A stretch of DNA of 64,000 nucleotides from Candidatus Thorarchaeota archaeon (GTDB lineage Archaea > Asgardarchaeota > Thorarchaeia > Thorarchaeales > Thorarchaeaceae), in assembly GCA_021498125.1 (NCBI GenBank), contig JAIZWL010000003.1, positions 60,457-124,456 of the forward strand. Direction: 5' to 3'. Shown one piece after another: positions 1 through 34,110 of the stretch; the first letter of the stretch is position 1, and every line of letters begins with the position of its first letter. The notes under the pieces were generated by a model that saw only the letters and a program-made list of their open reading frames with translations, was not told where the DNA came from and made no database searches. The translations under genes and the position numbers were made by a program.

Positions 1-564
1 ACCTGCCAAATCAATATGACCGCTATTCTTGCTAACGGATCGGTCATCACCTCCTTGCTTGAGAATGTATTTTTGGGGAACTTTTTCACGCCCACAGTCC
101 AAGTGATTACCCCAAATGGTGGTGAGGTCTGGCACGGACTGAACAATATTACTTGGGTCGCCTCTGACAAAAACTCTGACGAGACCCTGACCTATGATGT
201 TTTTGTATCGTCCGATGGAGGTCTCACACTAATGCTTCTGACCTCTGACTTGAATCGGACGTGGTATCTCTGGAACTGCTCGCCGTTCACAAGAAGTAGC
301 ACCTATATCATTGCAGTACGTGTGTCTGATGGGATCTATTCCTCTATGGATATGTCCGATGATGTCTTCACGGCTGGCGATATTGTGACGACCACAACAA
401 CCACATCCACAACCACTACAAGTTCGACTACAGCGACAACTACAACAACAGCTCTCCCGACTTTGCGATTGGAGGGGCCGATTGTGACTTTTCTGTTAGC
501 GTCTCTTATCTCAAGTGTGGCAATGGCTCTGTTTGTGTACTATAGCGCGAAGCGTTGGGTGTGA
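1..564 (+). CDS. Thr-rich cell-surface protein, C-terminal portion (reading frame open to window edge, so likely partial): globular domain, poly-Thr/Ser linker, C-terminal TM helix with short basic tail
   Basis: Frame open from nt 1. Contains a TTTTTTSTTTTSSTTATTTTT linker followed by a hydrophobic helix (IVTFLLASLISSVAMALFVYY) and KRWV tail. This architecture is typical of archaeal surface-anchored proteins. Confidence 0.4.
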   Translation, partial: TCQINMTAILANGSVITSLLENVFLGNFFTPTVQVITPNGGEVWHGLNNITWVASDKNSDETLTYDVFVSSDGGLTLMLLTSDLNRTWYLWNCSPFTRSSTYIIAVRVSDGIYSSMDMSDDVFTAGDIVTTTTTTSTTTTSSTTATTTTTALPTLRLEGPIVTFLLASLISSVAMALFVYYSAKRWV

Positions 565-585: not shown

Positions 586-1482
586 TCATCCCAAGATTCT
601 GTCTAGAATTCCCTGAGTGCTCACAACATGCTTATTCAGCCCGAGCTGTTCCGGGTCTAACCCAAGTGCAAGCCCCAATAGCTGGGTGTAGTAGAAGACT
701 GGAATCTGATATCTGTTCTCGCCGAATTCCTTGTTCAGCTGTGGCTGGGAGATCTCAAACTGGAGATGGCAAAATGAACAGACATCTACAATGATGTCCA
801 CACCTGCATCCATCATGTTGTCGAATTTTTCCTTTGCGATGTCCACACTCACAGGAGCATTACTCCCTCTGACCCCGCCACCAGCACCACAGCACATGTA
901 TTTGTCCTTGTATTTGACGCTCGTTGCACCAGTGGCCTCTACAAGATCATCAAGAAATGTATGCCGTTCTGTCTGGTGCCATGGTCGGTTCTTGCTTGGT
1001 TTCAGGAGATGACAGCCATAGTGCACGGCCACCTTTAGACCTGTGAGTGGACGCTTCACCATTTTCTTTATTGCCTCTGGCCCAAAAGAATAGATTACCT
1101 CGATGAGGTGTTTTGCATCGGCCTCCCCTGAGAACTTGAGACCCATGCCCTTGAATATCTGTTGGACCTCTTTGAGCTTTTCAGGGTCGTCATGAACGGC
1201 AGCAAGGGTCTCTTTGAACGTGCCATAGCAGCCATTGCATCCCGTGATGATGTCATTTCCTGCCTTTTCGGCCAGTGCAAGATTTCTAGAAGCAATGGCC
1301 AACCATGTTGACTCGTTGAACGACCTGATCACTCCTGGGGCCGGACAGCAACTTGCCCCCGGTAGATCCTCAAGTTCCACACCAAGCAGAGGCATCACTT
1401 CGCGGATGCTCTTCTCCACATTCGGGAACCTGTTTGGCATCACGCAGCCCAAGAAGAACGAATACTTTTGTGCCTCTGTCAT
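586..1482 (-). CDS. hdrB: Heterodisulfide reductase subunit B (HdrB, CCG-domain protein), copy 1
   Basis: Two CCG motifs (CCPAPG..., CCGAGGG...); N-terminus MTEAQKYSFFLGC typical of HdrB. ATG at 1482 lies 1 nt after the TAA stop of upstream hdrC (1484-1486). The ORF-track upstream extension 1483-1635 is considered non-coding. Confidence 0.85.
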   Translation of the reverse strand: MTEAQKYSFFLGCVMPNRFPNVEKSIREVMPLLGVELEDLPGASCCPAPGVIRSFNESTWLAIASRNLALAEKAGNDIITGCNGCYGTFKETLAAVHDDPEKLKEVQQIFKGMGLKFSGEADAKHLIEVIYSFGPEAIKKMVKRPLTGLKVAVHYGCHLLKPSKNRPWHQTERHTFLDDLVEATGATSVKYKDKYMCCGAGGGVRGSNAPVSVDIAKEKFDNMMDAGVDIIVDVCSFCHLQFEISQPQLNKEFGENRYQIPVFYYTQLLGLALGLDPEQLGLNKHVVSTQGILDRILG

Positions 1483-1483
1483 T

Positions 1484-2026
1484 TTACTCGTGCTCCTCTG
1501 TCTTTCTGACAAGCTCGATGAAGTGTGTTCTCCGAAATATCTCCTGAACCTGTTTGAGTGCCTCTTCGCTTGCATGTGTGGTTGGTGGGATCTCACTGAG
1601 CCCGAGTTCCCTTCGCATCTCTCGATTTGCATCATCTAGCGGGACCGCATGCCCTGTCCTGATGAGTTTCTCCGACGCCTTCCTATGTTGTGGAAGCATA
1701 TACCCCTCGGCAACAGCCATGTTACGCATGATGATGATCGCCTCCGTGACCCTAATCTGTCGGGGGCAACGTTCAAGGCAGGTCAGACATGTTGCGCAGA
1801 GCCAGAGATCGGGAGAACTCAAGACTTCTTCTTTCAGGCCCAAGAGCGCCTTCCGAATGAGTTCTCTTGTTCTAAAGGCCGTGCGTCTACCACTTGGACA
1901 GACACTTGAACATGTTCCGCATTGAATACAAGTTCTGATTCTATCAGCCCCTGCTTTGACAATGGCATCCACGAAGGTGGGATCGATATCTTCGTCATCG
2001 ATGATTTCACGGGAGATTGCCATCAA
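1484..2026 (-). CDS. hdrC: Heterodisulfide reductase subunit C (HdrC, 2x[4Fe-4S] ferredoxin-like), copy 1
   Basis: CIQCGTCSSVCP and CATCLTCLERCP cluster motifs; ~180 aa; immediately upstream of and co-oriented with hdrB. Confidence 0.85.
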   Translation of the reverse strand: MMAISREIIDDEDIDPTFVDAIVKAGADRIRTCIQCGTCSSVCPSGRRTAFRTRELIRKALLGLKEEVLSSPDLWLCATCLTCLERCPRQIRVTEAIIIMRNMAVAEGYMLPQHRKASEKLIRTGHAVPLDDANREMRRELGLSEIPPTTHASEEALKQVQEIFRRTHFIELVRKTEEHE

Positions 2027-2319
2027 GAGACCTCGGTATTGCTTCTATTGCACAATCGAATCGCACCGCATGATATAAGCCTTAAGCCCGAATGTGCCTC
2101 TCGATTGCTCTTCCGACCAATTATTGGCAATATTGCAAAAGTGACATGTTTCCAAGGTTGGCGTTCGAATCCTGTATAATAATGCCTCTCTTTAGTCACT
2201 ATATGGTCATGATAAGCCTGATACATGAGCTAAGGCGAATCCGCCGTTTTCTTTGCCCCCTTTGGCAATTAATTTAAGGCTGGTTGTCGCGCTTAAGCAT
2301 GCATTGGTGGATCATCTTG
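2027..2319. promoter_or_regulatory. Divergent intergenic/promoter region between two oppositely oriented hdrC-hdrB operons
   Basis: About 290 nt with no ORF, AT-rich patches, and GGAGG-like ribosome-binding sites close to both divergent start codons. Confidence 0.3.
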
Positions 2320-2889
2320 ATGAGCACGGACATGGAACCAATCGTCATTGACGAACCTGACACTGCATTTGTAGAGATGATAAAAGAAACAGGTGGCCCG
2401 AACATTCAGAACTGCTACCAGTGTGGCACCTGTAGTGGAAGTTGTCCCGCAGGAGCACGGACTAATTATCTCGTCCGATCGATCATTCGAAAAGCGCTCC
2501 TTGGACTAAAGGAGGCAGTGATCTCTGCACCTGAGTTATGGTATTGTACTACCTGCTATACCTGCCAAGACAGGTGTCCTCAGGATGTCCGACCGACCGA
2601 TGTCATCAAGGCGATCCGAAATATTGCAGTTGCCCATGGTCATATGTTAATGAATCACAGAAAGACAGCGGCCAAGGTGGTCGAGACCGGTCATGCTGTT
2701 CCTCTTGACAAAGAGTCGTGGCAGAAGCTTCGAGAATCTGTTGGTCTGAAACCTGTTCCACCTAATGCAAGCGGTAATCCATGGGCAATAGAGGAGATTC
2801 AAAAGATCACTAAGAGGAGTGGTTTCGACACCCTCATCGGTTATGAGGAGATCATGAAGGCCCAGGCTGAAAAGGCAAAGAAGGAGTAG
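2320..2889 (+). CDS. hdrC: Heterodisulfide reductase subunit C (HdrC), copy 2
   Basis: CYQCGTCSGSCP and CTTCYTCQDRCP motifs. The ORF track begins at TTG 2284; in-frame ATGs at 2299, 2320 and 2332 are alternative starts, and the N-terminal spacing before CxxCxxC favours 2320 or 2332. Confidence 0.8.
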   Translation: MSTDMEPIVIDEPDTAFVEMIKETGGPNIQNCYQCGTCSGSCPAGARTNYLVRSIIRKALLGLKEAVISAPELWYCTTCYTCQDRCPQDVRPTDVIKAIRNIAVAHGHMLMNHRKTAAKVVETGHAVPLDKESWQKLRESVGLKPVPPNASGNPWAIEEIQKITKRSGFDTLIGYEEIMKAQAEKAKKE

Positions 2890-2898
2890 TGGTAATCC

Positions 2899-3813
2899 AT
2901 GGCGCGACCAAAGTTTTTCCATTTTCTTGGATGCATCATCCCCCATCGTTATCCTAGTATTGAGAAGGCTGTAAACATTGTGTTTGAGGATCTTGGCATG
3001 GAGCTGTTAGATATGGTGGGTGCAACTTGTTGTCCTGCTCCTGGTGTCTTTGGGTCCTTTGATCGTGTCACATGGGCAACTATTGCGGCGCGTAATCTGA
3101 CCATTGCTGAGCAGGGTGGTGCTCCTATCACTACTGGGTGTAATGGTTGTTTTGCCAGTCTATGGGATTCGGCTCACGAACTACGAGAAGATGAAGAGCT
3201 CCGTCAGAAGGTCAATGAGAATCTTGCAGAGATCGGACGTGAGTTCAAAGGCACGGTGGAAGTCACTCATTATGTTGATGCACTTGTCTCTGTAGCAGGG
3301 ATGGACAAGATTCGTAAGAAGGTGGTTCGCCCCCTCACTGGTGTGCGAATGGCACTGCATCCTGGGTGCCACTGGATGCGTCCACAGGCCTTCAAGCAAA
3401 AAGATAACTCCGAACGACCTCGTATCTTTAGGGAATTGTGTGAGGCATCAGGGGCCGAATACGTCCCCTATAAGGATGAACTCATGTGCTGCGGTGCTGG
3501 TGGTGCAGTACGAACTGCTGACATCAAGGTTTCTCTTGATTTCACACGACAGAAGTTCGATAGTATTCTGGCGGCAGGTGGGGCCGATATCATTGTCACA
3601 CCCTGTCCGTTCTGTGAACTACAGCTTGATCTTGGGCAGGTAGAGATCAAGAAGCATTTTGATATCGAGTATCAGTTTGATGTTCTTCACGTTGTGGAAC
3701 TTCTTGCTCTGGCCTTTGGCCACGACCCTGAAGAGTTCGGCCTCAAGACGCATCTTCAATATCTCCAACGGAAGAGCGTGCCTGCTCTTGAACAACTGGG
3801 CCTAAATGTCTAA
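2899..3813 (+). CDS. hdrB: Heterodisulfide reductase subunit B (HdrB), copy 2
   Basis: MARPKFFHFLGC N-terminus; CCPAPG and CCGAGG CCG-domain motifs; follows hdrC by 9 nt. Confidence 0.85.
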   Translation: MARPKFFHFLGCIIPHRYPSIEKAVNIVFEDLGMELLDMVGATCCPAPGVFGSFDRVTWATIAARNLTIAEQGGAPITTGCNGCFASLWDSAHELREDEELRQKVNENLAEIGREFKGTVEVTHYVDALVSVAGMDKIRKKVVRPLTGVRMALHPGCHWMRPQAFKQKDNSERPRIFRELCEASGAEYVPYKDELMCCGAGGAVRTADIKVSLDFTRQKFDSILAAGGADIIVTPCPFCELQLDLGQVEIKKHFDIEYQFDVLHVVELLALAFGHDPEEFGLKTHLQYLQRKSVPALEQLGLNV

Positions 3814-4110
3814 GTTCTCAGCCGCACAAATCATCTCTTAACAATGGGGAAGTCGATGTATCGTATCGTAAAGCATTATCATTCTTCCACAACTTGCACC
3901 TCTGACCACCGAATCTGTTTAATACTATGGACATGGTAACATGAGGTGCTGGGACGCAGATGAAGGCAACGAGAAGTTATACCCGTGTATATCTCTCTCG
4001 GATCAGATCGCCTCCTAAGGAGTCCTCGGATTCTCAAGACCTCTCAGAGGTAGAGGTTCCGGTTGACAAGAAGGATTGATCTGTCCTTGGGAAGTGTTGC
4101 CCTGACAACA

Positions 4111-4166
4111 GGAACATAGGAGTTTCAGTCACTGAGACTGGACTCCTGTTCCTTATCTTTTTTTGA
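4111..4166 (+). terminator. Hairpin plus oligo-T terminator-like element between hdrB2 and hdrA
   Basis: Long imperfect palindrome GGAACATAGGAGTTTCAGTCACTGAGACTGGACTCCTGTTCC (4111-4152) followed by TTATCTTTTTTTG. The T7 run is on the + strand only. Confidence 0.45.
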
Positions 4167-4276
4167 GCATTCACTCATTTCATAATGGCGGGTGTGCTTA
4201 AAACGCGCACTACAACCAACTTTTTATCCGGCATGTTTGGACAACAGCGCCTACCACTGTCGGAGAGAACGCGGTT

Positions 4277-7200
4277 ATGGCTGAAACTGCTACAAAACCA
4301 GTTGTCATCGTGGGCGCAGGAATCACCGGTATCAAGGCCGCGCTTGACCTTGCCGAGATGGGCGTGAAGGTCTACTTGGTTGAAAAAGACTCCTCTATTG
4401 GAGGGCATATGTCGCAACTTGACAAGACCTTTCCCACCCTTGATTGTTCAATGTGTATCATGGGTCCTTGGATGGTAGATTGTTCTCGCCATCCGAATAT
4501 TGAGATTCTGACCTATGCTGAGGTCACAGATGTGACAGGGCAGCAAGGTGACTTCAGGGTCGAAGTTCTCAAGCACACTCGTCGGGTGGATCCGGAAAAA
4601 TGCACTGGCTGTGGTGACTGCCAGCGTATCTGCCCGATCGAAGTGCCAAATGAATACGATCTTGGTCTGAAGATGCGGAAGGCTGTGTACATACCCTTCC
4701 CACAGGCTGTGCCTAATGTTGCGACCATTGACAAAGAGAATTGCATCGAGTGCATGATGTGTGTGAAGACCTGCAAGGCAAAGGCTATTGATTTTGACAT
4801 CAAAGATGAGACCGTTGAGATCAATGCAGGCTCTGTCATTCTTGCCACCGGATATAGACTTCTAGACCCTGCCTCCGTTCCCGAATATGGCTATGGCCGC
4901 TTTCCAAATGTGGTGACCGCGCTTGAGTACGAGCGAATGGTCTCGGCCAGTGGTCCAACTGGCGGTATTGTCATGCGCCCCTCTGATGGCCGTGAGCCAC
5001 ACAGGATCGTCTTCATTCAATGTGTTGGTTCAAGGGATGTAAATCACTGTGCATATTGCTCCCGGATCTGCTGCACCTATGCTACGAAAGAGGCCATCAT
5101 CACAAAGGAGCATACACCAGAGGTCCATATTGATATTCTCTACAACGATCTCCGCGCCTTTGGTAAGGGGTTCGAGGAGTTCCTTGTGCGTGGTGAGCAA
5201 GAGTATGGTATCCAATATATCAAGGGCCTCCCCAGTGAGATTCAGGAAGACCCCGCCACGCATGATCTGATCGTCCGACATAGCGATGCCAAAGGTCACA
5301 AGGTATTGCAAGATCGCTACGACCTAGTAGTTCTGTGTCCTGCGATGGTCCCTAACGAGAATTCGGACCTCTTTGAGAAGATTGGCATCAGGACTGATCA
5401 GTATGGTTTTGTGGGTGGTGCTGGTGGCACTATCGAGTCTGTCCGCACAGAGGTCCCCGGGATCTATATGGCAGGTGCTATGAATGCGCCCAAGGACATC
5501 CCTGACTCGGTCGCTCATGCCAGCGCGGCAGCTGCACTTGCAGTCCTCGACATCACGCTTCCGGAAAAAACCGTGACCGAACAGATCACAGAGGACGACC
5601 TCACCTCTATGGCCGCAGAACCTCGGATCGGTGTCATCATCTGTTCATGTGGTATCAACATTGCGGGCGTAGTGGATGTTGCTGAGGTCACCAAATATGC
5701 TTCAACTCTGCCAAATGTTGTCTATGCAGAGAATCTGTTGTATTCATGTTCCTCCGACGCCCAAGAGGTCATTAAAGAGGCCATCAAGGAGCATCAACTG
5801 ACCCGACTCATTGTCGCTTCCTGTACTCCACGGACCCATGAGCCGCTCTTCCGTGCCACCATTGAGGAGGCGGGTCTTAACAAATATCTCTTCGAGATGG
5901 CCAACATCCGCGAGCATTGTTCTTGGGTCCATCAGACAGCCAAAGATGAAGCCACCGAGAAGGCAAAGGATCTCGTCAGGATGGCGGTTGCTCGGGCCCA
6001 GCTTCTTGAGCCACAAGAGGAGGCCGTCACCCCGGTCGAGCCGGCCGCTCTGGTCATTGGTGCAGGTGTGACGGGTATGTCGGCAGCAGAACTCATTGCT
6101 CAGAAGGGGTTCAAGGTCTACCTTGTGGAGAAGGAGAATCGGGTCGGAGGTCTGTTGAATCGTCTTGCCACTGTGAACTTTGACTTCACACCGACGAGTG
6201 AGATCATCGCAGACTTCGAATCACGCATTACAGGAGACCCGAACATAGAACTGCTTCTTGGTACCACGGTGATTGACGCAAAGGGTTCGATTGGCGACTT
6301 TGAGGTCACTCTTGCAACGGGTGGCAAGACTCGCGACGTGAAGGTCGGTGTTGTGATCGTTGCCACTGGTGCCGTTCCCTTGGAACAGACAGGGCTCTAT
6401 GGTCTGCAGGAATTCCCCGAAGTGATGACCGAGCTGGAATTCAGCCAACGTGTGGCCTCTGATAGCGGGTTCAAGGACGGCGAGACCTTTGCTGTGATAC
6501 ACTGTGCGGGATCCCGCGAGGACGAGAGTCTTGAGGGCGCCAGGACATGGTGTTCCAGTATTTGTTGTATGGTGGCCATTGAGCATACCCTTGAGCTACT
6601 TGAGAAGTACCCTAACTCTCGGGTCTTTCACTTCTATCGAGACTTGAGGGTCTCGTATGATGCAGAGGACAAATACCGTGAGGCACGCAAGAAGGGAGTG
6701 GTCTTTGTCCGGTTTGACAAGGACTCGCCACCGGAGGTAAAGAAGGGCAAGTCTAAGTCGTTGCGTATTGAAGTGATGGACCAAGTCCTTGGGTCTCAGC
6801 TAGGACTTGATGTTGATCATGTTGTACTTGCCACTGCATTGATTCCTCCAACACAGAACAAGGTGATCTCAGAGGCTTTCAAAGTCCCACTAAACACGTC
6901 TGGTTTCTTCATGGAGGCCCATCCCAAGCTTCGCCCAGTCGATTGTCAGACCGATGGGATTTATGTTGCAGGAACGGCTACAGCTCCAAAGAAGATCGCT
7001 GAGAGTATCGTTCAAGGGCGCGGTGCGGCTGCACGGGCTCTGGTGCCTCTCATTAATGGGATTCGGAAGGCAGAGGCAATAGTTTCTGTTGTGGATCCGG
7101 AGCTATGTGTCGGTTGCGGGACCTGTGAGGTCAACTGTGCATATAATGCCATTGAGGTAGTACCCGGTGATGGCGGTCACGACTATGCTGTGTCGAATCC

Positions 7201-7729
7201 TGTCCTCTGTCAGGGATGTGGCAAATGTGCTGCGGGCTGTCCCTCAGGTGCTATCACCATGAAGCATTTTACAGATGACCAGATTCTGGCGCAGATCCAT
7301 GCGGCACTGGAAGATCTACCTCCTACAGAGCCACGGATTGTTACCCTTGTCTGTAACTGGTGTAGCTATGCTGGGGCCGACAATGCTGGTGTGGCTCGTT
7401 TGCAGCAGCCCACGACTGTCCGTGATATCCGTGTCATGTGTACAGGCCGGCTTGGCGTGACTCATATGTTAGAGGCCTTTCGGTTAGGTGCTGATATGGT
7501 CTGGATATCCGGTTGTCATGTAGGTGACTGTCACTACGTAGATGGGAATATCAGTTTTGAGCGAAGGTTCAACATCGCCCGAAAGATCATTGAAAAGGCA
7601 GGACTCGAACCGGAGCGTCTTCAGTTCACCCATATCAGTGCGAGTGAGGGCGCAATCTGGGCGGAGACCGTCAAACAGATGAGTGAACTTGTGGAACGCC
7701 TTGGGCCAAGCCCATTGCGAGTGAGGTGA
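4277..7729 (+). CDS. hdrA: Giant HdrA-like flavoprotein: tandem HdrA modules (two FAD-binding GxGxxG Rossmann motifs, multiple [4Fe-4S] Cys clusters) fused to a C-terminal MvhD-like domain
   Basis: VIVGAGITGIKAALDLA and LVIGAGVTGMSAAEL dinucleotide-binding motifs; CxxCxxCxxxCP ferredoxin motifs. The C-terminal approximately 140 aa (TLVCNWCSYAGADNAG...GCHVGDCHY) match the MvhD family. 1150 aa. Confidence 0.8.
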   Translation: MAETATKPVVIVGAGITGIKAALDLAEMGVKVYLVEKDSSIGGHMSQLDKTFPTLDCSMCIMGPWMVDCSRHPNIEILTYAEVTDVTGQQGDFRVEVLKHTRRVDPEKCTGCGDCQRICPIEVPNEYDLGLKMRKAVYIPFPQAVPNVATIDKENCIECMMCVKTCKAKAIDFDIKDETVEINAGSVILATGYRLLDPASVPEYGYGRFPNVVTALEYERMVSASGPTGGIVMRPSDGREPHRIVFIQCVGSRDVNHCAYCSRICCTYATKEAIITKEHTPEVHIDILYNDLRAFGKGFEEFLVRGEQEYGIQYIKGLPSEIQEDPATHDLIVRHSDAKGHKVLQDRYDLVVLCPAMVPNENSDLFEKIGIRTDQYGFVGGAGGTIESVRTEVPGIYMAGAMNAPKDIPDSVAHASAAAALAVLDITLPEKTVTEQITEDDLTSMAAEPRIGVIICSCGINIAGVVDVAEVTKYASTLPNVVYAENLLYSCSSDAQEVIKEAIKEHQLTRLIVASCTPRTHEPLFRATIEEAGLNKYLFEMANIREHCSWVHQTAKDEATEKAKDLVRMAVARAQLLEPQEEAVTPVEPAALVIGAGVTGMSAAELIAQKGFKVYLVEKENRVGGLLNRLATVNFDFTPTSEIIADFESRITGDPNIELLLGTTVIDAKGSIGDFEVTLATGGKTRDVKVGVVIVATGAVPLEQTGLYGLQEFPEVMTELEFSQRVASDSGFKDGETFAVIHCAGSREDESLEGARTWCSSICCMVAIEHTLELLEKYPNSRVFHFYRDLRVSYDAEDKYREARKKGVVFVRFDKDSPPEVKKGKSKSLRIEVMDQVLGSQLGLDVDHVVLATALIPPTQNKVISEAFKVPLNTSGFFMEAHPKLRPVDCQTDGIYVAGTATAPKKIAESIVQGRGAAARALVPLINGIRKAEAIVSVVDPELCVGCGTCEVNCAYNAIEVVPGDGGHDYAVSNPVLCQGCGKCAAGCPSGAITMKHFTDDQILAQIHAALEDLPPTEPRIVTLVCNWCSYAGADNAGVARLQQPTTVRDIRVMCTGRLGVTHMLEAFRLGADMVWISGCHVGDCHYVDGNISFERRFNIARKIIEKAGLEPERLQFTHISASEGAIWAETVKQMSELVERLGPSPLRVR

Positions 7730-8259
7730 TCATTGTGGAAGAGACATGGGGTCAATTCAAGACTTTCGAAGGTACTAGATTCGAGGCTCTGGATGCGGAA
7801 TTCACACAAGAGGTCTCAACGCTGATTGGTGGACAGGACCTCACTGCATGTTTCCAGTGCGCCAAATGCAGCGCGGGGTGTCCCGTCAGTGACAAGGTCA
7901 ATATTCAGGTCCATGAACTCATGCGTATGCTCCTATTTGGCCTCAAGGAGGTTCTTCAGACCGATATGGTCTGGCTCTGTACGACATGCTACACCTGTCA
8001 GGAACGCTGTCCTCAGGGAATTCATATCACCGATATTATCTTTGGACTGAAGAATATGGCCTTTAAACGGGGGATTGCTCCAAAGGGCTACATTGTTGCA
8101 AGGCAGGGATTGTTTGATACAGGGCGCCTCTACGAGCCTACAGACTGGGAACGTGAGGATCTTGAGTTGGAAGACATTCCCGAATTCAATATCGCTGACA
8201 TTCAGAAGATGTTTGAGAAGACCGGACTCATGCGTTTGGAAGAGAAGGAGGATGCCTAA
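7726..8259 (+). CDS. hdrC: Heterodisulfide reductase subunit C (HdrC), copy 3
   Basis: CFQCAKCSAGCP and CTTCYTCQERCP motifs; GTG start overlapping the hdrA stop (GTGA). Confidence 0.75.
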   Translation: MIIVEETWGQFKTFEGTRFEALDAEFTQEVSTLIGGQDLTACFQCAKCSAGCPVSDKVNIQVHELMRMLLFGLKEVLQTDMVWLCTTCYTCQERCPQGIHITDIIFGLKNMAFKRGIAPKGYIVARQGLFDTGRLYEPTDWEREDLELEDIPEFNIADIQKMFEKTGLMRLEEKEDA

Positions 8260-8260
8260 T

Positions 8261-9136
8261 ATGACGGAAGAGTACGAGATCTTTCTGGGTTGTTCTATTC
8301 CCAATCGATTCAACAATTATGAGAGTTCGATGCGTACTGTTGCAGAGGCTCTTGACATTAAACTGTTAGACTTTGATGGTGCATCTTGTTGTGGGACTGT
8401 CGTCCTAAAGTCGATCGATGAGACCAGCTGGCTCTCGCTCTCTGGCCGCAATATTGCTCTTGCAGAGAGCCGTGGTCATGACATTGTGACACCCTGCAAT
8501 GGTTGTTATGGTTCGCTCAGGGATACAGACCACGTTCTTCATGAGCACGAGGAGCAACGTAAGGCTGTAAATGAGATCTTGCAAGAACTGAACCTCGAAT
8601 ATAAAGGCGAGGCGCGGATCCGTCACTTTGTAGAGGTTCTATATGACCTTCGTGACAAGATATGTGAAAAGATTGTTCGCCCGTTGACAGGTCTACGAAT
8701 TGCCTTTCATCCCGGGTGTCATCTGCTACGGCCCTCCACGGTCACCGGATTTGATGATCCCGAGCTTCCTCGTAAGGTGGACGAGCTTCTTGAGCTGACG
8801 GGCGCAGTGAGTGTACCTTGGTCTCTGAAGCTACGATGCTGCGGCTCCCCGCTTCTCATTGCGAGTGAGGAGGTTGCAACACGGATCTTGCAGGAAAAGA
8901 TGGAGTCAGCACGCGAGGCGAATGCTAATTGTGTAGTGACGAATTGTCCAGCCTGTCATACTCAATTTGATGTACAGGTCTTAGGTATGAAAGACTCGGA
9001 GGGTGAGTCTCTTGAGCTTCCCGCGCTCTTTGTCACTCAAGTTCTTGGTCTTGCAATGGGTCTTGACCCGGAGAGGCTCGGTCTTGAGATGAACCGTGTG
9101 TCACTTGAGCCCATAAGTGCTATTCTTGGAATTTGA
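8261..9136 (+). CDS. hdrB: Heterodisulfide reductase subunit B (HdrB), copy 3
   Basis: MTEEYEIFLGC N-terminus, CCGTVV and CCGSPL motifs. ATG at 8261 is preceded by AGGAGGATG and sits 1 nt after the hdrC TAA. The ORF-track upstream extension from 8075 is treated as non-coding overlap. Confidence 0.8.
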   Translation: MTEEYEIFLGCSIPNRFNNYESSMRTVAEALDIKLLDFDGASCCGTVVLKSIDETSWLSLSGRNIALAESRGHDIVTPCNGCYGSLRDTDHVLHEHEEQRKAVNEILQELNLEYKGEARIRHFVEVLYDLRDKICEKIVRPLTGLRIAFHPGCHLLRPSTVTGFDDPELPRKVDELLELTGAVSVPWSLKLRCCGSPLLIASEEVATRILQEKMESAREANANCVVTNCPACHTQFDVQVLGMKDSEGESLELPALFVTQVLGLAMGLDPERLGLEMNRVSLEPISAILGI

Positions 9137-9154
9137 TGAGGCCAGCGAGCTCGT

Positions 9155-9733
9155 TCACTCGATCTTGCTCTTCCCGTAGAAGATCTCTCCTATGACCTCT
9201 CTTGCCTCGTCAACATATTTCCTCTTCCCTGACACAAGCAAATGGTTGTCACCATCAAGTGAGATGATCACCCTACACTCCTCTGCGATCTCTGACACGA
9301 TTTCTATTGGGATGTCCTCCGGCAATCGTATTCGAAAGAAGCCGATGCCCTGTTCACGTGGCAGTTCTGTTATGGGGGTTTCTCTCTCAGATTCATGAAG
9401 CCGAATCTCACCACGGAGTGCGGCCTCAAACTTTTCTTCCCACTCTCTTCTGTATGCTACGCCCTGCCTCTCTTCAGCCCAGACCATGATGGTCTGACGG
9501 AGGCTAAAGATTTTCTCTTCCATCTCCCCACGTAATCGCGCGTCAGGGTCATCCGTGAGCTGAACCTCTTCTCTATACGCGCGAAGGTACTCGATGATCA
9601 TCTTGCTATTTCTAAAGTCTCGATACGTCAGGTCAGGGATAAAGACACCCATCTTGGTCAGTTCACCAAGTAGGTCATTGAGTACCGTCCAACATGCAGC
9701 AAGTGACTCTAGAGCGACCAATGCACGACTCAC
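9155..9733 (-). CDS. Hypothetical protein co-transcribed with hdrA2 (ATGA start/stop overlap)
   Basis: 192-aa ORF with no recognisable motifs. Its start codon overlaps the stop of the upstream HdrA-like gene by 4 nt. Confidence 0.4.
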   Translation of the reverse strand: MSRALVALESLAACWTVLNDLLGELTKMGVFIPDLTYRDFRNSKMIIEYLRAYREEVQLTDDPDARLRGEMEEKIFSLRQTIMVWAEERQGVAYRREWEEKFEAALRGEIRLHESERETPITELPREQGIGFFRIRLPEDIPIEIVSEIAEECRVIISLDGDNHLLVSGKRKYVDEAREVIGEIFYGKSKIE

Positions 9734-12700
9734 TCCCTGAGCATCTCAGCGATCTGTTCCAAGAAGCTCTTCTCACGCCACCAACGCAAATCACGGGCTC
9801 CTGTTGGGCAAATGGCTGCACAAGCGCCACAACCTTGGCACCGCATCTCATCCGTGTAGCTCTTCTTCACGCCCGGTGCTACCTCTTTCATACCCACCGC
9901 ATCATACGGACAAATGTCCGAGTAGTGGCACAGGTCACAGCCGACACAGAGATCCTCATTGACCTCGGCAGTGAGAAGCTCGATATCCACAGTTCCAAGG
10001 TTTAATGGGACGACCGCCTGACTTGCAGCACCACGTGCCTGATTTATTGAGTCTGAGATGTTCTTGGCATATGTCACTCCCAGAAAGACTCCCGGCACAG
10101 TGGTCTCTACAGGTCGGAACTTCATGTGCATCTCCAGAAGGAATCCGTCCTGTCCTCTGGTGATCCCCAGCGCCTTGATGAGGTCGGACACATCATGTGG
10201 TGCCTCAAGACCCAGTGCAAGAACGACCATGTCTGAACGGATTTGGAAGGTCTCTTGTGAGAGCGTATCATAGACAGTCACTATTGCCTCGTCCCCGTCC
10301 GATGCCTTCTCCACAGTGACCGGCCGATCACGAACCCAGCGTAGATATGTGACGCCGTTCTGACGGTTCTCGCGCCACATCTCCTCCATCTCATTACCAA
10401 AGGGTCGAATATGCTCCTTGTATGCTGAGAAGACACGAATATCTGGAAACATCTCTTTGAGTTCTTTCTGGAGTGTGATGACTGCTGAACAACACACCCG
10501 TGAGCAGTACCGATTCCCCTCTCCCGGATTCTGCCTTGATCCCACACAGTGGATGAAGACGGGATTCTTTGGTGGTACCTTCAGCTCACCATTACGAAGC
10601 ATTCGCTCTAGCTGAAGCGTCGAGATGACCGCAGGCACCTCTCCATAACCATATTCTCCTCTCTTCGGTTCATACGTGTCAGTGCCAACGGTAATGACTA
10701 CTGTTCCGACCCGAAACGTCTCCCGTTCTCCAGTGTTCACGTTCTCGACAGTGATGTCATAATTTCCATAAGACCCGTCCCGTAGAACAGGTTTGGAATC
10801 GAGAACGACTTTGATCTTCTTTGCCTTATTGATGCGGGTCACAAGTGACTCTACAAGTTCACTGGCTGGTGTAAGTTTTGGAAATACTCGATGAAGCTCG
10901 TTGAGTCTTCCACCGAGTCTGTCGGCCTTTTCAACTAAGACCACTTCAAAGCCCTTTGCTGCAATATCAAGAGCAGCAGTCATTCCCGATACGCCGCCAC
11001 CAATGACCATGACGCGACGAGTGACCTCCACTTTTTTGATCGGGACCTCTTCGTTATTGATTGCTTTTGCCACACCGCTTCGAATCATGTCCTGAGCCTT
11101 TTCCTGTCTCACCTCTGGTGGGGCATTCGCATTTACAAGTGCAAGTTGTTCTCTGAGACCTACCGGACCGACCAAGTAGTATCCTGAAAGTCCCGCAGCC
11201 TCAAGTGCTCCCCGAAATGTTGCTTGATGCTGAAGTGGTGAGCATGATCCGACAACGATTCGATTGAGCTTGTGTTCTTTAATTGCCTCTGTGATCATGG
11301 CTTGTCCGGGATCACTGCACATAAACAGATAATCTGTACTATAGACGACATGGGGGAGATTTTGCGCCCACTTTGCAAGACCGGGCGAGTCAATGACATT
11401 GCCAATGATCCCTCCGCAGTGGCAGATGAAGACTCCCACCCGAGGTTCGCCAGTCCCATCGATTGGTTCGATGTCTGGTGGCGGGGCGGGTCTTGGCAGC
11501 GGCAAGTGCGAACTTGCGGCCATTGCTGCGCCCTTCCCCTCGTTCACAGTGTCGGTTCCATCTCGTGGACCGTGGATACACCCTGCCATGTACACTCCCG
11601 CGCGAGTGGTTTCCAAGGCTGCCGAGTTGGGGTCACGTTCTTTGACCCAGCCGTTCTCATCGATCTCGACCTTGAGAATCTTGGCAAGTTCTTTCTGGCC
11701 CTCATTCGGTCTGAAACTCGAATTGAGTACAACCATGGAGATATCTTTAATCTCCATGATCTCTCCGGATTCTGTGTTCTCCATCTTTACAGAGAGATCG
11801 TGAGTGTCAGGGTTCTCTGATATCTCTGCGACGCGCCCACGAATGAACTTGATTCCCTGATTATGTTCGGAGTCCCAGAGGAACTCTTCCAAGGCTTTTC
11901 CTGCTGTGCGTAGATCCATGTAGGTGTAGAGTATCTCGCAATGTTCCTCGGGATAATGCATCCTTGTGACCTGAGCAAGCTTGAGTCCAAAAGCACAACA
12001 GACCCTATTGCAATGGGTACTATATCCCTCAATATGCTCTCTCACGTCCCGACTACCGACGCAATTGATGAACAGGATTCGGCTTGGTTCTCTTCCGTCT
12101 GAGGGTCGGATCATGTGAGCATCGGTCGGGCCTGTTGGGTGGGTCATGCGGTCATATTCAAGACTTGTGACCACGTTTGGAAAGATCCCATACCCATATT
12201 CTCCATAATCAACGGGTTTGTACTCTTGAAAGCCACTCGCAAGAATGATTGAACCAACATTCAAGTCGATCAGTTTGTCCGTGTCGTCATACATGATGCA
12301 ATCCTGTGGGCAGACCCCTGCACATGTTCCACAGCCAATGCATGCATCTCTGTCAATAGTGGCGATCAATGGGATCTGTTGGGGGAAGTTCATGTAGATC
12401 GCTTTTCGGAGCGAGAGACCGAAATTGTATTCATCCGGCACCTCTACAGGGCATGAGCGAATACACATCTGGCAGCCAGTACATTTGTCCTCATTGACAT
12501 AGCGCGCCTTCTTTCGGATCGTCACGGTAAAGTTTCCCTTTGACCCCCTGACCTTCTCGACAGTTGATAGTGCGTGAATCGTGATGTTTGGATGCTTGCC
12601 GACGAATGAGGTGAGTGGAGTCATGACACAGGCGGAACATTCCAGAGCCGGGAATATTTTGTAGATGGCAACGTAGTTCCCTCCGATATTGACAGTCTTC

Positions 12701-12834
12701 TCGATCATATGGACATGGTATCCGCCATTGGCCAGATCGAGGGCGGCACTTATACCTGCCATACCACCACCGATGACAAGAACGTCAGTCGGTTTGGCCT
12801 TCGTCACGGTTTGCTCGGCTGACTGGGTGACCAT
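9730..12834 (-). CDS. hdrA: Second giant HdrA-like flavoprotein: tandem HdrA modules with C-terminal 2x[4Fe-4S] ferredoxin domain, no MvhD
   Basis: VLVIGGGMAGISAALDLA and VMVIGGGVSGMTAALDIA motifs; several CxxCxxCxxxCP motifs; C-terminal CVGCDLC...CQGCGACAAICP. Start moved to ATG at 12834, which has a GGAG about 10 nt upstream. The ORF-track extension to 12966 is hydrophobic junk. Confidence 0.8.
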   Translation of the reverse strand: MVTQSAEQTVTKAKPTDVLVIGGGMAGISAALDLANGGYHVHMIEKTVNIGGNYVAIYKIFPALECSACVMTPLTSFVGKHPNITIHALSTVEKVRGSKGNFTVTIRKKARYVNEDKCTGCQMCIRSCPVEVPDEYNFGLSLRKAIYMNFPQQIPLIATIDRDACIGCGTCAGVCPQDCIMYDDTDKLIDLNVGSIILASGFQEYKPVDYGEYGYGIFPNVVTSLEYDRMTHPTGPTDAHMIRPSDGREPSRILFINCVGSRDVREHIEGYSTHCNRVCCAFGLKLAQVTRMHYPEEHCEILYTYMDLRTAGKALEEFLWDSEHNQGIKFIRGRVAEISENPDTHDLSVKMENTESGEIMEIKDISMVVLNSSFRPNEGQKELAKILKVEIDENGWVKERDPNSAALETTRAGVYMAGCIHGPRDGTDTVNEGKGAAMAASSHLPLPRPAPPPDIEPIDGTGEPRVGVFICHCGGIIGNVIDSPGLAKWAQNLPHVVYSTDYLFMCSDPGQAMITEAIKEHKLNRIVVGSCSPLQHQATFRGALEAAGLSGYYLVGPVGLREQLALVNANAPPEVRQEKAQDMIRSGVAKAINNEEVPIKKVEVTRRVMVIGGGVSGMTAALDIAAKGFEVVLVEKADRLGGRLNELHRVFPKLTPASELVESLVTRINKAKKIKVVLDSKPVLRDGSYGNYDITVENVNTGERETFRVGTVVITVGTDTYEPKRGEYGYGEVPAVISTLQLERMLRNGELKVPPKNPVFIHCVGSRQNPGEGNRYCSRVCCSAVITLQKELKEMFPDIRVFSAYKEHIRPFGNEMEEMWRENRQNGVTYLRWVRDRPVTVEKASDGDEAIVTVYDTLSQETFQIRSDMVVLALGLEAPHDVSDLIKALGITRGQDGFLLEMHMKFRPVETTVPGVFLGVTYAKNISDSINQARGAASQAVVPLNLGTVDIELLTAEVNEDLCVGCDLCHYSDICPYDAVGMKEVAPGVKKSYTDEMRCQGCGACAAICPTGARDLRWWREKSFLEQIAEMLRE

Positions 12835-32495: not shown

Positions 32496-32575
32496 GTCTT
32501 AAGTCACAGCTTGCAGCGCGGTGAATTGGCTATGATAATTGTCTGGCTCCCAAGGGGCCAGTGAAGGTGCGTACT

Positions 32576-34105: not shown

Positions 34106-34110
34106 TTTCA

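What the first reader, a model, noticed from the sequence alone, without database searches (positions are those of the whole stretch)
586..12834. Dense heterodisulfide-reductase locus: three hdrCB pairs plus two giant tandem-HdrA fusions, one with fused MvhD, and no hydrogenase or formate dehydrogenase genes in view
Twelve kilobases are devoted to HdrABC-type flavin/FeS proteins. Two divergent hdrCB pairs occupy 586-3813. An operon at 4277-9136 encodes a 1150-aa HdrA-HdrA-MvhD fusion followed by hdrC and hdrB. A convergent 1035-aa HdrA-HdrA-ferredoxin fusion sits at 9730-12834. Duplicated HdrA modules fused to MvhD imply a flavin-based electron-bifurcating complex. No MvhAG or FdhAB electron donor is encoded nearby, so the donor is unknown. 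Tandem-HdrA architectures are rare outside a few lineages.
Basis: partly seen in the sequence, partly recalled or inferred. Interest (0 to 1): 0.5.

Follow-up and report, generated by a model that had tools for sequence, protein, structure and literature searches.

The report
Asymmetric fused double-HdrA locus, Thorarchaeota
This 12-kb stretch of an Asgard (Thorarchaeota) genome does encode three HdrBC pairs and two giant heterodisulfide-reductase A proteins, but each giant is a known, widespread kind of fusion of two complementary half-enzymes forming one electron-bifurcating unit, so it is a well-preserved example, not a new system.

Summary
Window 586-12834 holds three hdrC-hdrB pairs, a 1150-aa HdrA-HdrA-MvhD gene and a 1034-aa HdrA-HdrA gene. 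All are intact and conserved at full length in many Asgard genomes.

The interpretation needs correcting. The giants are not simple tandem duplications. Module 1 keeps the Cys194/Cys197 pair, the bifurcating-flavin residues E356/K409, the HA4 cluster and the inserted ferredoxin domain. [quoted passage not shown] Module 2 keeps exactly those missing parts (N-terminal HA3 domain, C-terminal ferredoxin, plus MvhD in the larger protein). It lacks the Cys pair, the inserted ferredoxin and K409. One polypeptide therefore rebuilds a single electron track of the normally two-track HdrA homodimer.

This design is already described for ANME archaea and for Sporomusa and Moorella. The fusion itself has been catalogued in Thor- and Lokiarchaeota. 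It is not rare: full-length relatives occur in at least ten phyla.

No donor gene lies in the 64-kb window. On a contig carrying identical genes, a group 4 [NiFe] hydrogenase module and a pyruvate:ferredoxin oxidoreductase operon sit just beyond the left edge. Lokiarchaeial orthologues are followed by MetV-MetF. The third redox partner and the disulfide substrate in Thorarchaeota remain unknown.

Verdict: new member of a known kind, moderate-to-low interest.

The parts
586..1482 (-). hdrB1 (298 aa), disulfide-reductase catalytic subunit
   Evidence: TIGR03288 380.9 bits (cutoff 345). Two complete CCG motifs CX31-39CCX35-36CXXC. Same gene call on the Logan contig.
1484..2023 (-). hdrC1 (179 aa), 2x[4Fe-4S] subunit, 1 nt upstream of hdrB1
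   Evidence: TIGR03290 200.8 bits (cutoff 160). Two CxxCxxCxxxC motifs.
2320..2889 (+). hdrC2 (189 aa), divergent from hdrC1 across a 296-nt intergenic region
   Evidence: TIGR03290 193.9 bits. Two CxxCxxCxxxC motifs. Gene call.
2899..3813 (+). hdrB2 (304 aa)
   Evidence: TIGR03288 375.5 bits. Two complete CCG motifs.
4277..5596 (+). A1 module 1 (aa 1-440): TrxR-like FAD domain with Cys57/Cys60 (= Cys194/197), E219/K271 (= E356/K409), HA4 cysteines C249/C261/C265/C266 and the inserted 2x[4Fe-4S] ferredoxin domain. It has no N-terminal domain and no C-terminal Fd.
   Evidence: Aligns to 5ODC HdrA residues 143-510, 453 bits. Module alignment. All listed residues are invariant in 16 homologues. 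K409 is kept in 95/95 and E356 in 93/95 double HdrAs. Foldseek against the core HdrA chain 8rwn_A gives TM 0.91.
5612..7324 (+). A1 module 2 (aa 446-1016): MvhD-like N-terminal domain with the HA3 cysteines, a second FAD domain with GxGxxG and HA4-type cysteines, and the C-terminal 2x[4Fe-4S] ferredoxin domain. It has no Cys194/197, no inserted Fd domain, and no E356 (Ser) or K409 (Glu).
7325..7729 (+). A1 C-terminal MvhD domain (aa 1017-1150) and stop codon
   Evidence: PF02662 E 4.9e-43. PDB MvhD chains score 1e-39 to 3e-43. Cys16, His68 and Asp71 equivalents are kept (CNWCS, GCHVGDCHY).
7735..8259 (+). hdrC3 (174 aa), 5 nt after A1
   Evidence: Two CxxCxxCxxxC motifs. TIGR03290 100.5 bits, below the cutoff of 160, so a divergent subfamily. 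The A1-hdrC-hdrB order is conserved in Thor, Hermod-labelled, Prometh and Baldr loci.
8261..9136 (+). hdrB3 (291 aa), 1 nt after hdrC3
   Evidence: Two complete CCG motifs. TIGR03288 289 bits, below the cutoff of 345.
9155..9733 (-). DUF2096 protein (192 aa). Its start overlaps the A2 stop by 4 nt, so it is probably co-transcribed with A2.
   Evidence: PF23100 and PF09869. Overlap shown. The same A2-DUF2096 arrangement occurs in L002, L005 and L086.
11467..12834 (-). A2 module 1 (aa 1-456): FAD domain with the Cys pair (ECSAC), D/K at positions 356/409, HA4 cysteines and the inserted Fd domain. It has no N-terminal domain.
9730..11454 (-). A2 module 2 (aa 461-1034) and stop codon: N-terminal domain (position 103 is Leu instead of Cys), second FAD domain without the Cys pair, inserted Fd or K409 (Thr), and the C-terminal Fd domain. 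There is no MvhD.
   Evidence: About 60 Thor protein clusters at 74-99% identity, nearly all exactly 1034 aa.

Best explanation
The locus is the Hdr gene cluster of a Thorarchaeota (Asgard) genome. Its two giant HdrA proteins, called A1 and A2 here, are each a covalently fused pseudo-heterodimer that rebuilds only one of the two electron tracks of the canonical HdrA homodimer.

Shown from sequence. Module 1 supplies what the cryo-EM work assigns to the 'primed' protomer: the Cys194/197 pair next to the bifurcating FAD, the E356/K409 flavin signature, cluster HA4 leading to HdrC/HdrB, and the inserted ferredoxin domain (HA5/HA6). Module 2 supplies the 'mobile arm' of the other protomer: the N-terminal domain with shuttle cluster HA3, the C-terminal ferredoxin domain and, in A1, a fused MvhD [2Fe-2S] domain.

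Inferred mechanism. A third redox partner exchanges electrons with the MvhD cluster. These pass via the Cys pair to the module 1 FAD, which bifurcates. One electron goes through HA4 and HdrC to the two noncubane clusters of HdrB and a disulfide. The other goes through HA3 and HA5/HA6 to ferredoxin. The reaction may also run in reverse (confurcation). All three HdrBC pairs look catalytically competent.

Still unknown. The third partner is not encoded locally. The family pairs with interchangeable modules elsewhere: MetVF, Flx- or NuoE-like NAD(H) modules, AOR and FrhB-like proteins. In Thorarchaeota both the partner and the disulfide are unknown. Nearby genes on a contig carrying identical genes (POR and a group 4 hydrogenase) suggest the locus belongs to a ferredoxin-centred energy island.
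For: - Domain hits.
- Reciprocal domain and residue losses in both giants.
- All cofactor ligands are invariant in 16 homologues of 47-86% identity.
- Across 95 double HdrAs, module 1 keeps K409 in 95/95 and E356 in 93/95, module 2 never has Cys at 194/197, and the N-terminal-domain cysteines C11, C13, C46 and C72 are 95/95.
- Thor and Hel proteins have lost K409 in module 2.
- Position 197 is selenocysteine (in-frame UGA) in Desulfobacterota relatives, which marks it as functional.
- The electron path and the role of the Cys pair, HA3, HA4 and HA5/6 are taken from PMC13580544.
- E356/K409 as the bifurcation signature, and the same module order in the S. ovata and M. thermoacetica HdrAs, are taken from PMC9430772.
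- The complementary-loss principle is from PMC9012536.
- HdrB CCG motifs and HdrC motifs are intact.
- The AF2 model has pTM 0.80 over all 1150 residues. Foldseek best hits are HdrA chains, TM 0.69-0.91.
- Conserved gene block in Thor and Hermod-labelled genomes.
- Partner modules in relatives.
Against: - No biochemistry exists for any Asgard Hdr.
- Module 2 keeps GxGxxG, the second FAD motif and all four HA4-type cysteines. It is therefore not a dead scaffold, and its flavin may have a role not captured by a strict 'one track' reading.
- Most family members outside Thor and Hel keep K409 in module 2 as well (68/95), so the degree of asymmetry varies.
- Inter-cofactor distances in the fused protein could not be measured, because the tool returns no model coordinates.
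- Thorarchaeota are not known to make CoM or CoB (own knowledge), so the HdrB substrate is undefined.
- There are three HdrBC pairs but four HA4-bearing modules, and the stoichiometry is unexplained.
Confidence: 0.72

Rival explanations
1. Third partner is MetVF. A1 would be the HdrA of an Hdr-type methylene-tetrahydrofolate/H4MPT reductase (MetFV-HdrABC-MvhD), as in Moorella and Sporomusa. [quoted passage not shown]
For: - In both Lokiarchaeial loci the MvhD-fused double HdrA is immediately followed by MetV-MetF (L009, L012).
- In Helarchaeota, MetF-MetV lie about 5 kb from the A1/A2 pair.
- MetV was found in 9 and MetF in 7 of the ~80 double-HdrA loci.
- The S. ovata HdrA has the same module order, lacks the inserted Fd in the second module and keeps E/K only in the first module, like A1.
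Against: - No metF or metV in the 64-kb window.
- None within 10 kb (or to the contig end) of A1 in four other Thor or Hermod-labelled loci.
- The search meant to find Thor MetF was saturated by Loki sequences and gave no answer.
- In S. ovata the Hdr and MetVF proteins interact only weakly, and the reaction is still unresolved.
Confidence: 0.25
2. Third partner is an unlinked MvhAG-type (group 3c) [NiFe] hydrogenase docking on the fused MvhD. The complex would then run the classical H2-driven bifurcation, or H2-evolving confurcation, with a non-CoM/CoB disulfide.
For: - The fused MvhD retains Cys16, His68 and Asp71 and all [2Fe-2S] cysteines.
- The literature reports MvhA/FrhA-type hydrogenase genes widely in Asgard, including Thorarchaeia, and proposes Mvh-Hdr bifurcation with an unknown heterodisulfide (PMC11227280; PMC11291895).
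Against: - No mvhA or mvhG in the window or in any of the examined Asgard A1 loci.
- According to PMC11227280, Asgard genomes carry separate canonical hdrA-mvhD pairs, which are the more obvious partners for MvhAG.
Confidence: 0.22
3. Donor-autonomous enzyme. Like M. acetivorans HdrA2B2C2 (an HdrA-MvhD fusion), the complex would oxidise a diffusible hydride carrier (F420H2 or NAD(P)H) directly at a flavin, so no donor subunit is needed.
For: - A1-HdrC-HdrB is the only block conserved across Thor, Hermod-labelled, Prometh and Baldr loci, with no constant extra module.
- HdrA2B2C2 bifurcates from F420H2 without other subunits (PMC5296606).
- Both giants score best against the NCBIfam HdrA2 model.
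- An F420-type LLM oxidoreductase gene lies in the window.
- The Baldr operon continues with an FrhB-like gene.
Against: - The NCBIfam score is summed over two modules and so is inflated.
- No F420- or NAD(P)H-binding site can be recognised.
- HdrA2 is a single-module protein.
- The Baldr FrhB-like gene may instead belong to the adjacent glutamate-synthase genes.
Confidence: 0.18
4. Simple tandem duplication. Each giant would carry two equivalent, independently bifurcating HdrA units.
For: Both modules keep GxGxxG, the second FAD motif and HA4-type cysteines.
Against: [quoted passage not shown]
- Module 2 lacks the Cys pair, the inserted Fd domain and K409.
- Neither module alone has a complete path as defined in the solved complexes.
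Confidence: 0.03
5. Assembly or annotation artefact: the giant ORFs arise from frameshifted or mis-joined shorter hdrA genes.
For: Split versions do exist in other genomes (HdrA of 431 aa plus HdrA of 555 aa plus MvhD in Loki, Sif and Bathyarchaeia loci).
Against: - Identical or near-identical full-length ORFs occur on independent contigs and MAGs from NCBI, JGI, ENA and Logan.
- A2 is exactly 1034 aa in almost all of about 60 Thor clusters.
Confidence: 0.01

Closest known systems
[quoted passage not shown] 2022, PMC9012536)
   Same: The principle is the same. One half has the N-terminal FeS domain but no Cys197, the other has Cys197 but no N-terminal domain. Together they are proposed to act as their own heterodimeric partner and to break the two-fold symmetry of HdrA2. 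They sit with HdrBC/MvhD, and MvhAG is absent. Relatives from ANME-2 and Methanoperedens were recovered here (L030, L040, L048).
   Different: As described for HdrA3/4, the module bearing the N-terminal domain comes first. Here the Cys197-bearing module comes first. That paper does not treat Asgard proteins, the MvhD-fused form or the E356/K409 pattern. I did not examine the ANME HdrA3/4 sequences themselves.
HdrA of the Hdr-type methylenetetrahydrofolate reductase (HdrCBA-MvhD-MetVF) of Sporomusa ovata and Moorella thermoacetica (Mock 2014; Kremp 2022, PMC9430772)
   Same: The module order is the same: an extra TrxR-like module first, then an MvhD-like N-terminal domain, a TrxR domain without the inserted Fd, and a C-terminal Fd. 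In S. ovata the E/K bifurcation signature is kept only in the first module, as in A1. Loki and Hel orthologues of A1 are linked to MetV-MetF.
   Different: - MvhD is a separate protein in the acetogens and fused here.
- S. ovata module 1 lacks the inserted Fd domain that A1 and A2 keep.
- Moorella carries an additional GltD/NAD(P)H insertion.
- No metVF lies near the Thor genes.
HdrA2B2C2 of Methanosarcina acetivorans (Yan, Wang & Ferry 2017, PMC5296606)
   Same: It is also an HdrA-MvhD fusion working with HdrB and HdrC without hydrogenase or FDH subunits. It gives the best NCBIfam model match for both giants.
   Different: HdrA2 is a single complete HdrA module (87 kDa), presumably homodimeric. 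Its substrates (F420H2, CoM-S-S-CoB) are established. Neither substrate is known for Thorarchaeota.
Canonical MvhAGD-HdrABC, Fdh-Hdr and Elp-Hdr complexes of methanogens (PDB 5ODC, 7BKB, 8RVU, 9SW2)
   Same: Every domain and cofactor ligand of one electron track is present and 36-51% identical. The same two noncubane-cluster CCG motifs occur in HdrB.
   Different: Those HdrAs are symmetric homodimers of ~650-aa chains with two tracks, a separate MvhD and a dedicated donor module. No fused double HdrA has a solved structure.
Catalogue of HdrA-HdrA(-MvhD) fusions in Archaea (Fusion/fission protein families, mSystems 2024, PMC11237513)
   Same: [quoted passage not shown]
   Different: It is a survey only. 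In the passages found there is no residue-level or mechanistic dissection and no A1/A2 distinction.

Membership tests
HdrA (heterodisulfide reductase subunit A, bifurcating type) | TrxR-like FAD domain with GxGxxG and the second FAD motif | tested here: met
   Both motifs are present in both modules of A1 and in module 1 of A2. In A2 module 2 the second motif reads GVFLG rather than G-[IV]-[YF]-x-[AG]-G. Foldseek TM 0.91 to the core HdrA chain.
HdrA (heterodisulfide reductase subunit A, bifurcating type) | E356 and K409 near the flavin (bifurcation signature, per PMC9430772 citing Appel 2021) | tested here: met
   Met in module 1 only. A1 has E219/K271. A2 has D/K. Module 2 has S/E in A1 and E/T in A2.
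HdrA (heterodisulfide reductase subunit A, bifurcating type) | Cys194/Cys197 pair, HA4 cysteines, N-terminal HA3 domain, inserted Fd and C-terminal Fd all in one ~650-aa chain | tested here: not met
   No single module has all of them. They are split between modules 1 and 2, and the full set is present once per polypeptide. These are therefore members of the fused double-HdrA subclass, not canonical HdrA.
Fused double HdrA with complementary loss (ANME HdrA3/4; S. ovata-type HdrA) | Two TrxR modules in one chain, one with Cys197 and no N-terminal domain, the other with an N-terminal domain and no Cys197 | tested here: met
   for both A1 and A2. Module 2 has Cys at 194/197 in 0 of 95 family members.
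MvhD / FlpD (PF02662) | MvhD fold with [2Fe-2S] cysteines, plus Cys16, His68 and Asp71 | tested here: met
   PF02662 146.5 bits (cutoff 22.3). PDB MvhD chains score 1e-39 to 3e-43. CNWCS and GCHVGDCHY are conserved. C1026, C1029, C1055, C1080 and C1085 are invariant.
HdrB (TIGR03288) | Two CCG motifs CX31-39CCX35-36CXXC for the noncubane [4Fe-4S] clusters, and the curated score cutoff | tested here: met
   The motifs are complete in all three proteins. The cutoff is passed by HdrB1 (380.9) and HdrB2 (375.5) but not HdrB3 (289 against 345).
HdrC (TIGR03290) | Two CxxCxxCxxxC motifs, and the curated score cutoff | tested here: met
   The motifs are present in all three. The cutoff is passed by HdrC1 and HdrC2 but not HdrC3 (100.5 against 160).
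CoB-CoM heterodisulfide reductase (function) | CoM-S-S-CoB as the physiological substrate, in an organism that makes CoM and CoB and has Mcr/Acr | not testable with these tools
   No mcr or CoM/CoB biosynthesis genes were seen in the window. Passing an equivalog cutoff does not establish the substrate in a non-methanogen.
MvhAGD-HdrABC hydrogenase complex | mvhA and mvhG (group 3c [NiFe] hydrogenase) associated with hdrA-mvhD | tested here: not met
   Absent from the window and from the flanks fetched (up to 10 kb) in all examined Asgard A1 loci. Genome-wide presence was not tested.
Hdr-type MTHFR (HdrCBA-MvhD-MetVF) | metV and metF clustered with hdrCBA-mvhD | tested here: not met
   Not met in this window or in the Thor or Hermod-labelled loci. 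Met in the Loki loci L009 and L012, and nearly met in the Hel locus L003.
HdrA2B2C2 (F420H2-dependent) | A single HdrA module fused to MvhD, and direct F420H2 oxidation | tested here: inconclusive
   The MvhD fusion is present. The NF040770 score of 1184.8 exceeds the cutoff of 1100 but is summed over two modules. A1 is a double, not a single, module. The activity cannot be tested here.

The most novel reading that the evidence does not exclude
A1 and A2 could form a donor-autonomous, Thor/Hel-specific Hdr super-assembly. The non-bifurcating flavin of module 2, which has lost K409 specifically in these lineages, would be a built-in entry or exit site for a diffusible hydride carrier (F420H2 or NAD(P)H). 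The single bifurcating flavin of module 1 would couple this to ferredoxin, made by the neighbouring POR and consumed by the neighbouring group 4 hydrogenase, and to a still unidentified non-CoM/CoB thiol/disulfide pool handled by three different HdrBC pairs. This would be a new reaction type for HdrA. It would also address the long-standing question of what 'heterodisulfide reductase' does in Asgard archaea.
Probability: 0.12. Interest if true: 0.6.

Novelty: new member of a known kind. Interest (0 to 1): 0.3.

Why it matters
Hdr complexes are repeatedly invoked in models of Asgard energy metabolism, and so in hydrogen- and syntrophy-based scenarios of eukaryogenesis. Their donor and their disulfide substrate are still unknown.

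This locus shows that the dominant Thorarchaeal Hdr is not the methanogen-type symmetric enzyme. It is a fused, single-track version, in two conserved paralogues, with no dedicated donor gene in the fetched flanks (up to 10 kb). That narrows what experiments should test.

No fused double HdrA has a solved structure. Because all parts of one bifurcation track sit on one polypeptide, such proteins could be convenient targets for structural work on flavin-based bifurcation.

The finding itself, however, largely re-describes published observations.

Tried and rejected
1. Frameshift or mis-assembly origin of the giant ORFs. Rejected, because full-length homologues exist on many independent contigs.
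2. A2 as the fused equivalent of the split HdrA[431]+HdrA[555] pair found beside MetVF in Loki. Rejected, because the split proteins are closer to A1 (42-48% identity) than to A2 (35-38%). A2 orthologues occur only in the Thor (75%) and Hel (45-49%) loci.
3. Search for a Thorarchaeal MetF using the Loki MetF as query. The top 120 hits were all close Loki relatives, so the search said nothing about Thor and cost one capped search.
4. The NCBIfam 'HdrA2' call for A1. Not taken at face value, because the score is summed over three stretches of a duplicated protein.
5. AlphaFold and Foldseek. The model is confident overall (pTM 0.80) and matches HdrA. The tool returns no coordinates, so the decisive inter-module distances could not be measured.
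6. Extending the view upstream. Only about 15 kb could be reached through a Logan contig carrying identical genes. The complete Thor genome CP070761.1 could not be scanned for mvhAG, metFV or frhB.
7. [quoted passage not shown]

Full report
**What is there.** hdrB1 (586-1482, minus) and hdrC1 (1484-2023, minus) are divergent from hdrC2 (2320-2889) and hdrB2 (2899-3813). A 1150-aa gene (4277-7729, called A1 here) is followed after 5 and 1 nt by hdrC3 (7735-8259) and hdrB3 (8261-9136). Convergent to these is a 1034-aa gene (9730-12834, minus, called A2), whose stop overlaps by 4 nt the start of a DUF2096 gene (9155-9733). A1 matches HdrA of PDB 5ODC at E 1.6e-223, and its last 134 residues match MvhD (PF02662, 4.9e-43; PDB MvhD chains about 1e-40). 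A2 matches HdrA chains at up to E 4.7e-185. All three HdrB proteins have two complete CCG motifs and all three HdrC proteins have two CxxCxxCxxxC motifs. The pairs are only 40-43% (B) and 34-45% (C) identical to each other. Pair 3 falls below the NCBIfam equivalog cutoffs that pairs 1 and 2 pass.

**Organism and reality of the ORFs.** The window is archaeal (proteasome, exosome, SBDS). It carries a eukaryote-type actin (PF00022, 6e-122) and a gelsolin-repeat protein, which are typical Asgard signature proteins. The closest homologues of A1 (96%) and A2 (99%) are from Candidatus Thorarchaeota MAGs. A1-type proteins of 1146-1170 aa occur at 72-96% identity in Thor- and Hermod-labelled MAGs. They occur at about 50% in Hel-, Sif-, Prometh- and Baldrarchaeota and in Bathyarchaeia. 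A2-type proteins are almost all exactly 1034 aa in about 60 Thor clusters (74-99%). They drop to 45-47% in Hel-, Loki- and Hod-labelled MAGs and to 40% or less for other double HdrAs. The giant ORFs are therefore genuine genes, not frameshift artefacts.

**Anatomy.** I aligned the four modules with the crystallised HdrA, whose sequence I reconstructed. The giants are not tandem copies.
- Module 1 (A1 residues 1-440; A2 1-456) starts at the thioredoxin-reductase-like FAD domain. It has no N-terminal domain.
- It keeps the Cys194/Cys197 pair (DCSMC / ECSAC), the inserted 2x[4Fe-4S] ferredoxin domain and the four cysteines of the TrxR-domain cluster. It ends without a C-terminal ferredoxin domain.
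- Module 2 starts with the MvhD-like N-terminal domain and its cysteines. It has a second FAD domain with the cluster cysteines and ends with the C-terminal 2x[4Fe-4S] ferredoxin domain, followed in A1 by MvhD.
- It lacks the Cys pair, and the whole inserted ferredoxin domain is deleted.

All these ligands are invariant across 16 homologues of 47-86% identity. In 95 double HdrAs from 80 genomes, module 1 keeps K409 in 95/95 and E356 in 93/95. Module 2 never has a cysteine at positions 194/197. Four N-terminal-domain cysteines are 95/95. In many Desulfobacterota relatives position 197 is an in-frame UGA ('DCSM*I'), that is, selenocysteine, which underlines its functional weight. In Thor and Hel proteins module 2 has also lost K409 (E/T/N/M), whereas Loki, Sif and most other lineages keep it (68/95).

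**Mapping on the solved complexes.** E356 and K409 are the residues used to tell bifurcating from non-bifurcating HdrA flavins (PMC9430772). The 2026 cryo-EM study of Mvh-Hdr-Fmd gives the following path (PMC13580544):
- MvhD [2Fe-2S] approaches Cys202'/Cys205' (= Cys194/197) and the bifurcating FAD' of the partner protomer.
- FAD' sends one electron via HA4' to HdrBC.
- FAD' sends the other to the 'shuttle' cluster HA3, which the paper shows moving with the mobile arm. HA3 hands it to HA5'/HA6' of the primed protomer.

Module 1 is therefore the primed protomer: Cys pair, bifurcating flavin, HA4, HA5/6. I place HA3 in the N-terminal domain and assign that domain, the C-terminal Fd and MvhD to the mobile arm, from PMC9012536 and my own knowledge. 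On that reading module 2 is the mobile arm of the other protomer. The fused MvhD keeps Cys16, His68 and Asp71, the residues placed at the MvhD/Cys-pair contact. One polypeptide thus rebuilds exactly one of the two tracks of the HdrA homodimer. An AlphaFold2 model has pTM 0.80 over all 1150 residues, consistent with a compact assembly. The loop carrying Cys57/Cys60 is low-confidence. Foldseek finds only ~650-aa or core HdrA chains (TM 0.69-0.91), so no fused double HdrA has been solved. The electron path in the fused protein is inferred, not shown, because I could not measure distances.

**Comparison with what is known.** The complementary-loss principle was described for ANME HdrA3/4 and for tandem HdrA5/6 and 12/13, and noted for Moorella HdrA (PMC9012536). 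[quoted passage not shown] S. ovata keeps E/K only in the first module, like A1. A 2024 survey lists HdrA-HdrA and HdrA-HdrA-MvhD fusions in 16/18 Thor and 9/10 Loki assemblies (PMC11237513). The architecture is therefore known, and it is not rare. The GTDB species scan hit its limit at 600 pattern matches, 599 of them confirmed to encode a relative. The best 80 loci include ~1000-aa double HdrAs in Desulfobacterota, Chloroflexi, Planctomycetota, Bacillota, Thermoplasmatota, Methanomassiliicoccales, Methanoperedens/ANME-2, Methanosarcina, Archaeoglobi, Bathyarchaeia and Asgard groups. In most of these MvhD is a separate gene right after hdrA (48 of ~80 loci). The MvhD-fused ~1150-aa form is mainly found in Asgard.

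**Partners.** Clustering the neighbours of the double HdrAs gave the following recurrent families:

| Neighbour family | Loci |
|---|---|
| MvhD | 48 |
| HdrD-like CB fusion | 36 |
| HdrC | 27 |
| HdrB | 23 |
| 340-aa FeS protein | 20 |
| AOR | 13 |
| NuoE-like protein | 11 |
| MetV | 9 |
| MetF | 7 |
| Flx-like pair | 9 |

The family is thus a core that plugs into interchangeable modules. In Asgard the conserved core is A1-HdrC-HdrB (Thor, Hermod-labelled, Prometh, Baldr). Thor and Hermod-labelled genomes add the convergent A2-DUF2096 pair (L001, L002, L005, L086). In Hel, A1- and A2-type genes are adjacent. Loki loci place MetV-MetF directly after the A1-type gene, and Hel has MetF-MetV about 5 kb away. 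The Baldr operon continues with an FrhB-like gene plus glutamate-synthase genes. Thor loci show no such module in the flanks fetched (up to 10 kb).

The 64-kb window itself contains no hydrogenase, FDH, MetF or Etf. A Logan contig that carries 100% identical copies of A1 and HdrB1 shows what lies left of the window start. There is a four-gene 2-oxoacid:ferredoxin oxidoreductase operon and a NuoB/NuoC/large-subunit/NuoH/NuoI module. The 409-aa large subunit keeps both [NiFe] ligand motifs (RICGICSATH, DPCYSC), so it is a group 4 hydrogenase. Hdr, group 3/4 hydrogenases and ATP synthase are reported as one syntenic block in other Asgard lineages (PMC11291895). The locus therefore sits in a ferredoxin-centred neighbourhood.

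**Function.** I commit to a single-track, flavin-based bifurcating or confurcating HdrA(A)-HdrBC complex. It would link ferredoxin, a disulfide/dithiol couple at HdrB and a third partner reached through MvhD (confidence about 0.7 for this mechanism). The identity of the third partner is open:
- MetVF, about 0.25, by orthologue synteny and the acetogen precedent.
- An unlinked MvhAG hydrogenase, about 0.22. Such genes are reported widely in Asgard, including Thorarchaeia.
- Direct oxidation of F420H2 or NAD(P)H, as in M. acetivorans HdrA2B2C2, about 0.18.

The disulfide is unknown. Thorarchaeota are not known to use CoM or CoB (own knowledge), and the literature speaks of 'an unidentified heterodisulfide'. 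Three things remain unexplained. Module 2 retains a full FAD site and an HA4-type cluster. There are three HdrBC pairs for four HA4-bearing modules. A2 lacks MvhD and one N-terminal-domain cysteine (position 103 is Leu).

**Verdict.** It misses the complementary half-enzyme design and wrongly calls the architecture rare. This is a new, clean member of a known kind. The useful residue-level result is that the reciprocal losses map exactly onto the single electron track defined by recent cryo-EM work, and that Thor and Hel have additionally lost the flavin signature in module 2. Interest 0.3.

Noticed in passing
Outside the window: L085 15634-19427 (= L001 1-1573), about 6-10 kb left of window position 1 on Logan contig SRR15988961_1755: A compact five-gene group 4 [NiFe] hydrogenase-like module: NuoB-like small subunit, NuoC, a 409-aa large subunit with intact RICGICSATH and DPCYSC Ni-Fe motifs, NuoH and NuoI. 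No antiporter-like subunit is adjacent.
   Followed up: partly
Outside the window: L085 12612-15509, about 1-4 kb left of window position 1: A four-subunit 2-oxoacid:ferredoxin oxidoreductase operon (delta, alpha, beta, gamma) lies between the hydrogenase module and the hdr cluster. Together they form a ferredoxin-centred neighbourhood.
   Followed up: partly
window 9155-9733 (-): A DUF2096 protein (four-helix bundle plus KH-like domain, function unknown) overlaps the A2 stop by 4 nt. It keeps this position after A2 in three other Thor or Hermod-labelled genomes, so it may be an uncharacterised accessory or assembly factor of A2.
   Followed up: partly
window 45211-46317 (+) and 48947-49543 (-): A eukaryote-type actin (PF00022, 6e-122) and a gelsolin-repeat protein (PF00626, 5e-32), both Asgard 'eukaryotic signature proteins', lie 2.6 kb apart.
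   Followed up: no
window 29728-35385: A histidine-utilisation set: urocanate hydratase hutU (676 aa, about 100 residues ahead of the matched region), histidine ammonia-lyase hutH and imidazolonepropionase hutI. This is consistent with amino-acid fermentation feeding ferredoxin and redox pools.
   Followed up: no
window 51671-52795 (+): An F420-dependent luciferase-like (LLM) oxidoreductase with a sub-threshold match to Mer (115 bits against a cutoff of 276). It shows that F420-type enzymes occur in this genome.
   Followed up: no
Loci L014, L018, L041, L043, L055, L062, L081, L082 (Desulfobacterota double HdrA genes): The codon at the Cys197 position of module 1 is an in-frame TGA ('DC[SA]M*I'), that is, selenocysteine. 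My simple ORF caller therefore truncated these genes to about 900-950 aa.
   Followed up: partly
window 3814-4276, compared with L002 4016-5864, L005 and L086 690-2567: Other Thor or Hermod-labelled genomes carry a methyltransferase, a CdhD-like corrinoid-protein subunit and a small ferredoxin directly upstream of A1. A radical-SAM gene lies beside or between the divergent hdrCB pairs in L002 and L005. Both are missing here, leaving a 463-nt intergenic gap.
   Followed up: no
window 16-564 (+), continuing upstream (L085 10919-12399): A 337-aa Thr-rich, probably membrane-anchored or surface protein and a 156-aa wHTH-like membrane protein precede hdrB1. They are conserved in that position in another Thor MAG (L005). 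No family match was found.
   Followed up: no
L007, L009, L012, L054 (Sif, Loki, Bathyarchaeia): Unfused versions of the same design occur as adjacent genes: HdrA of ~431-438 aa (module 1-like), HdrA of ~555-596 aa (module 2-like) and MvhD, in the same order as in the fusion. In L009 and L012 they sit next to a fused copy; in L054 two ~1000-aa double HdrAs with separate MvhD genes lie nearby.
   Followed up: partly
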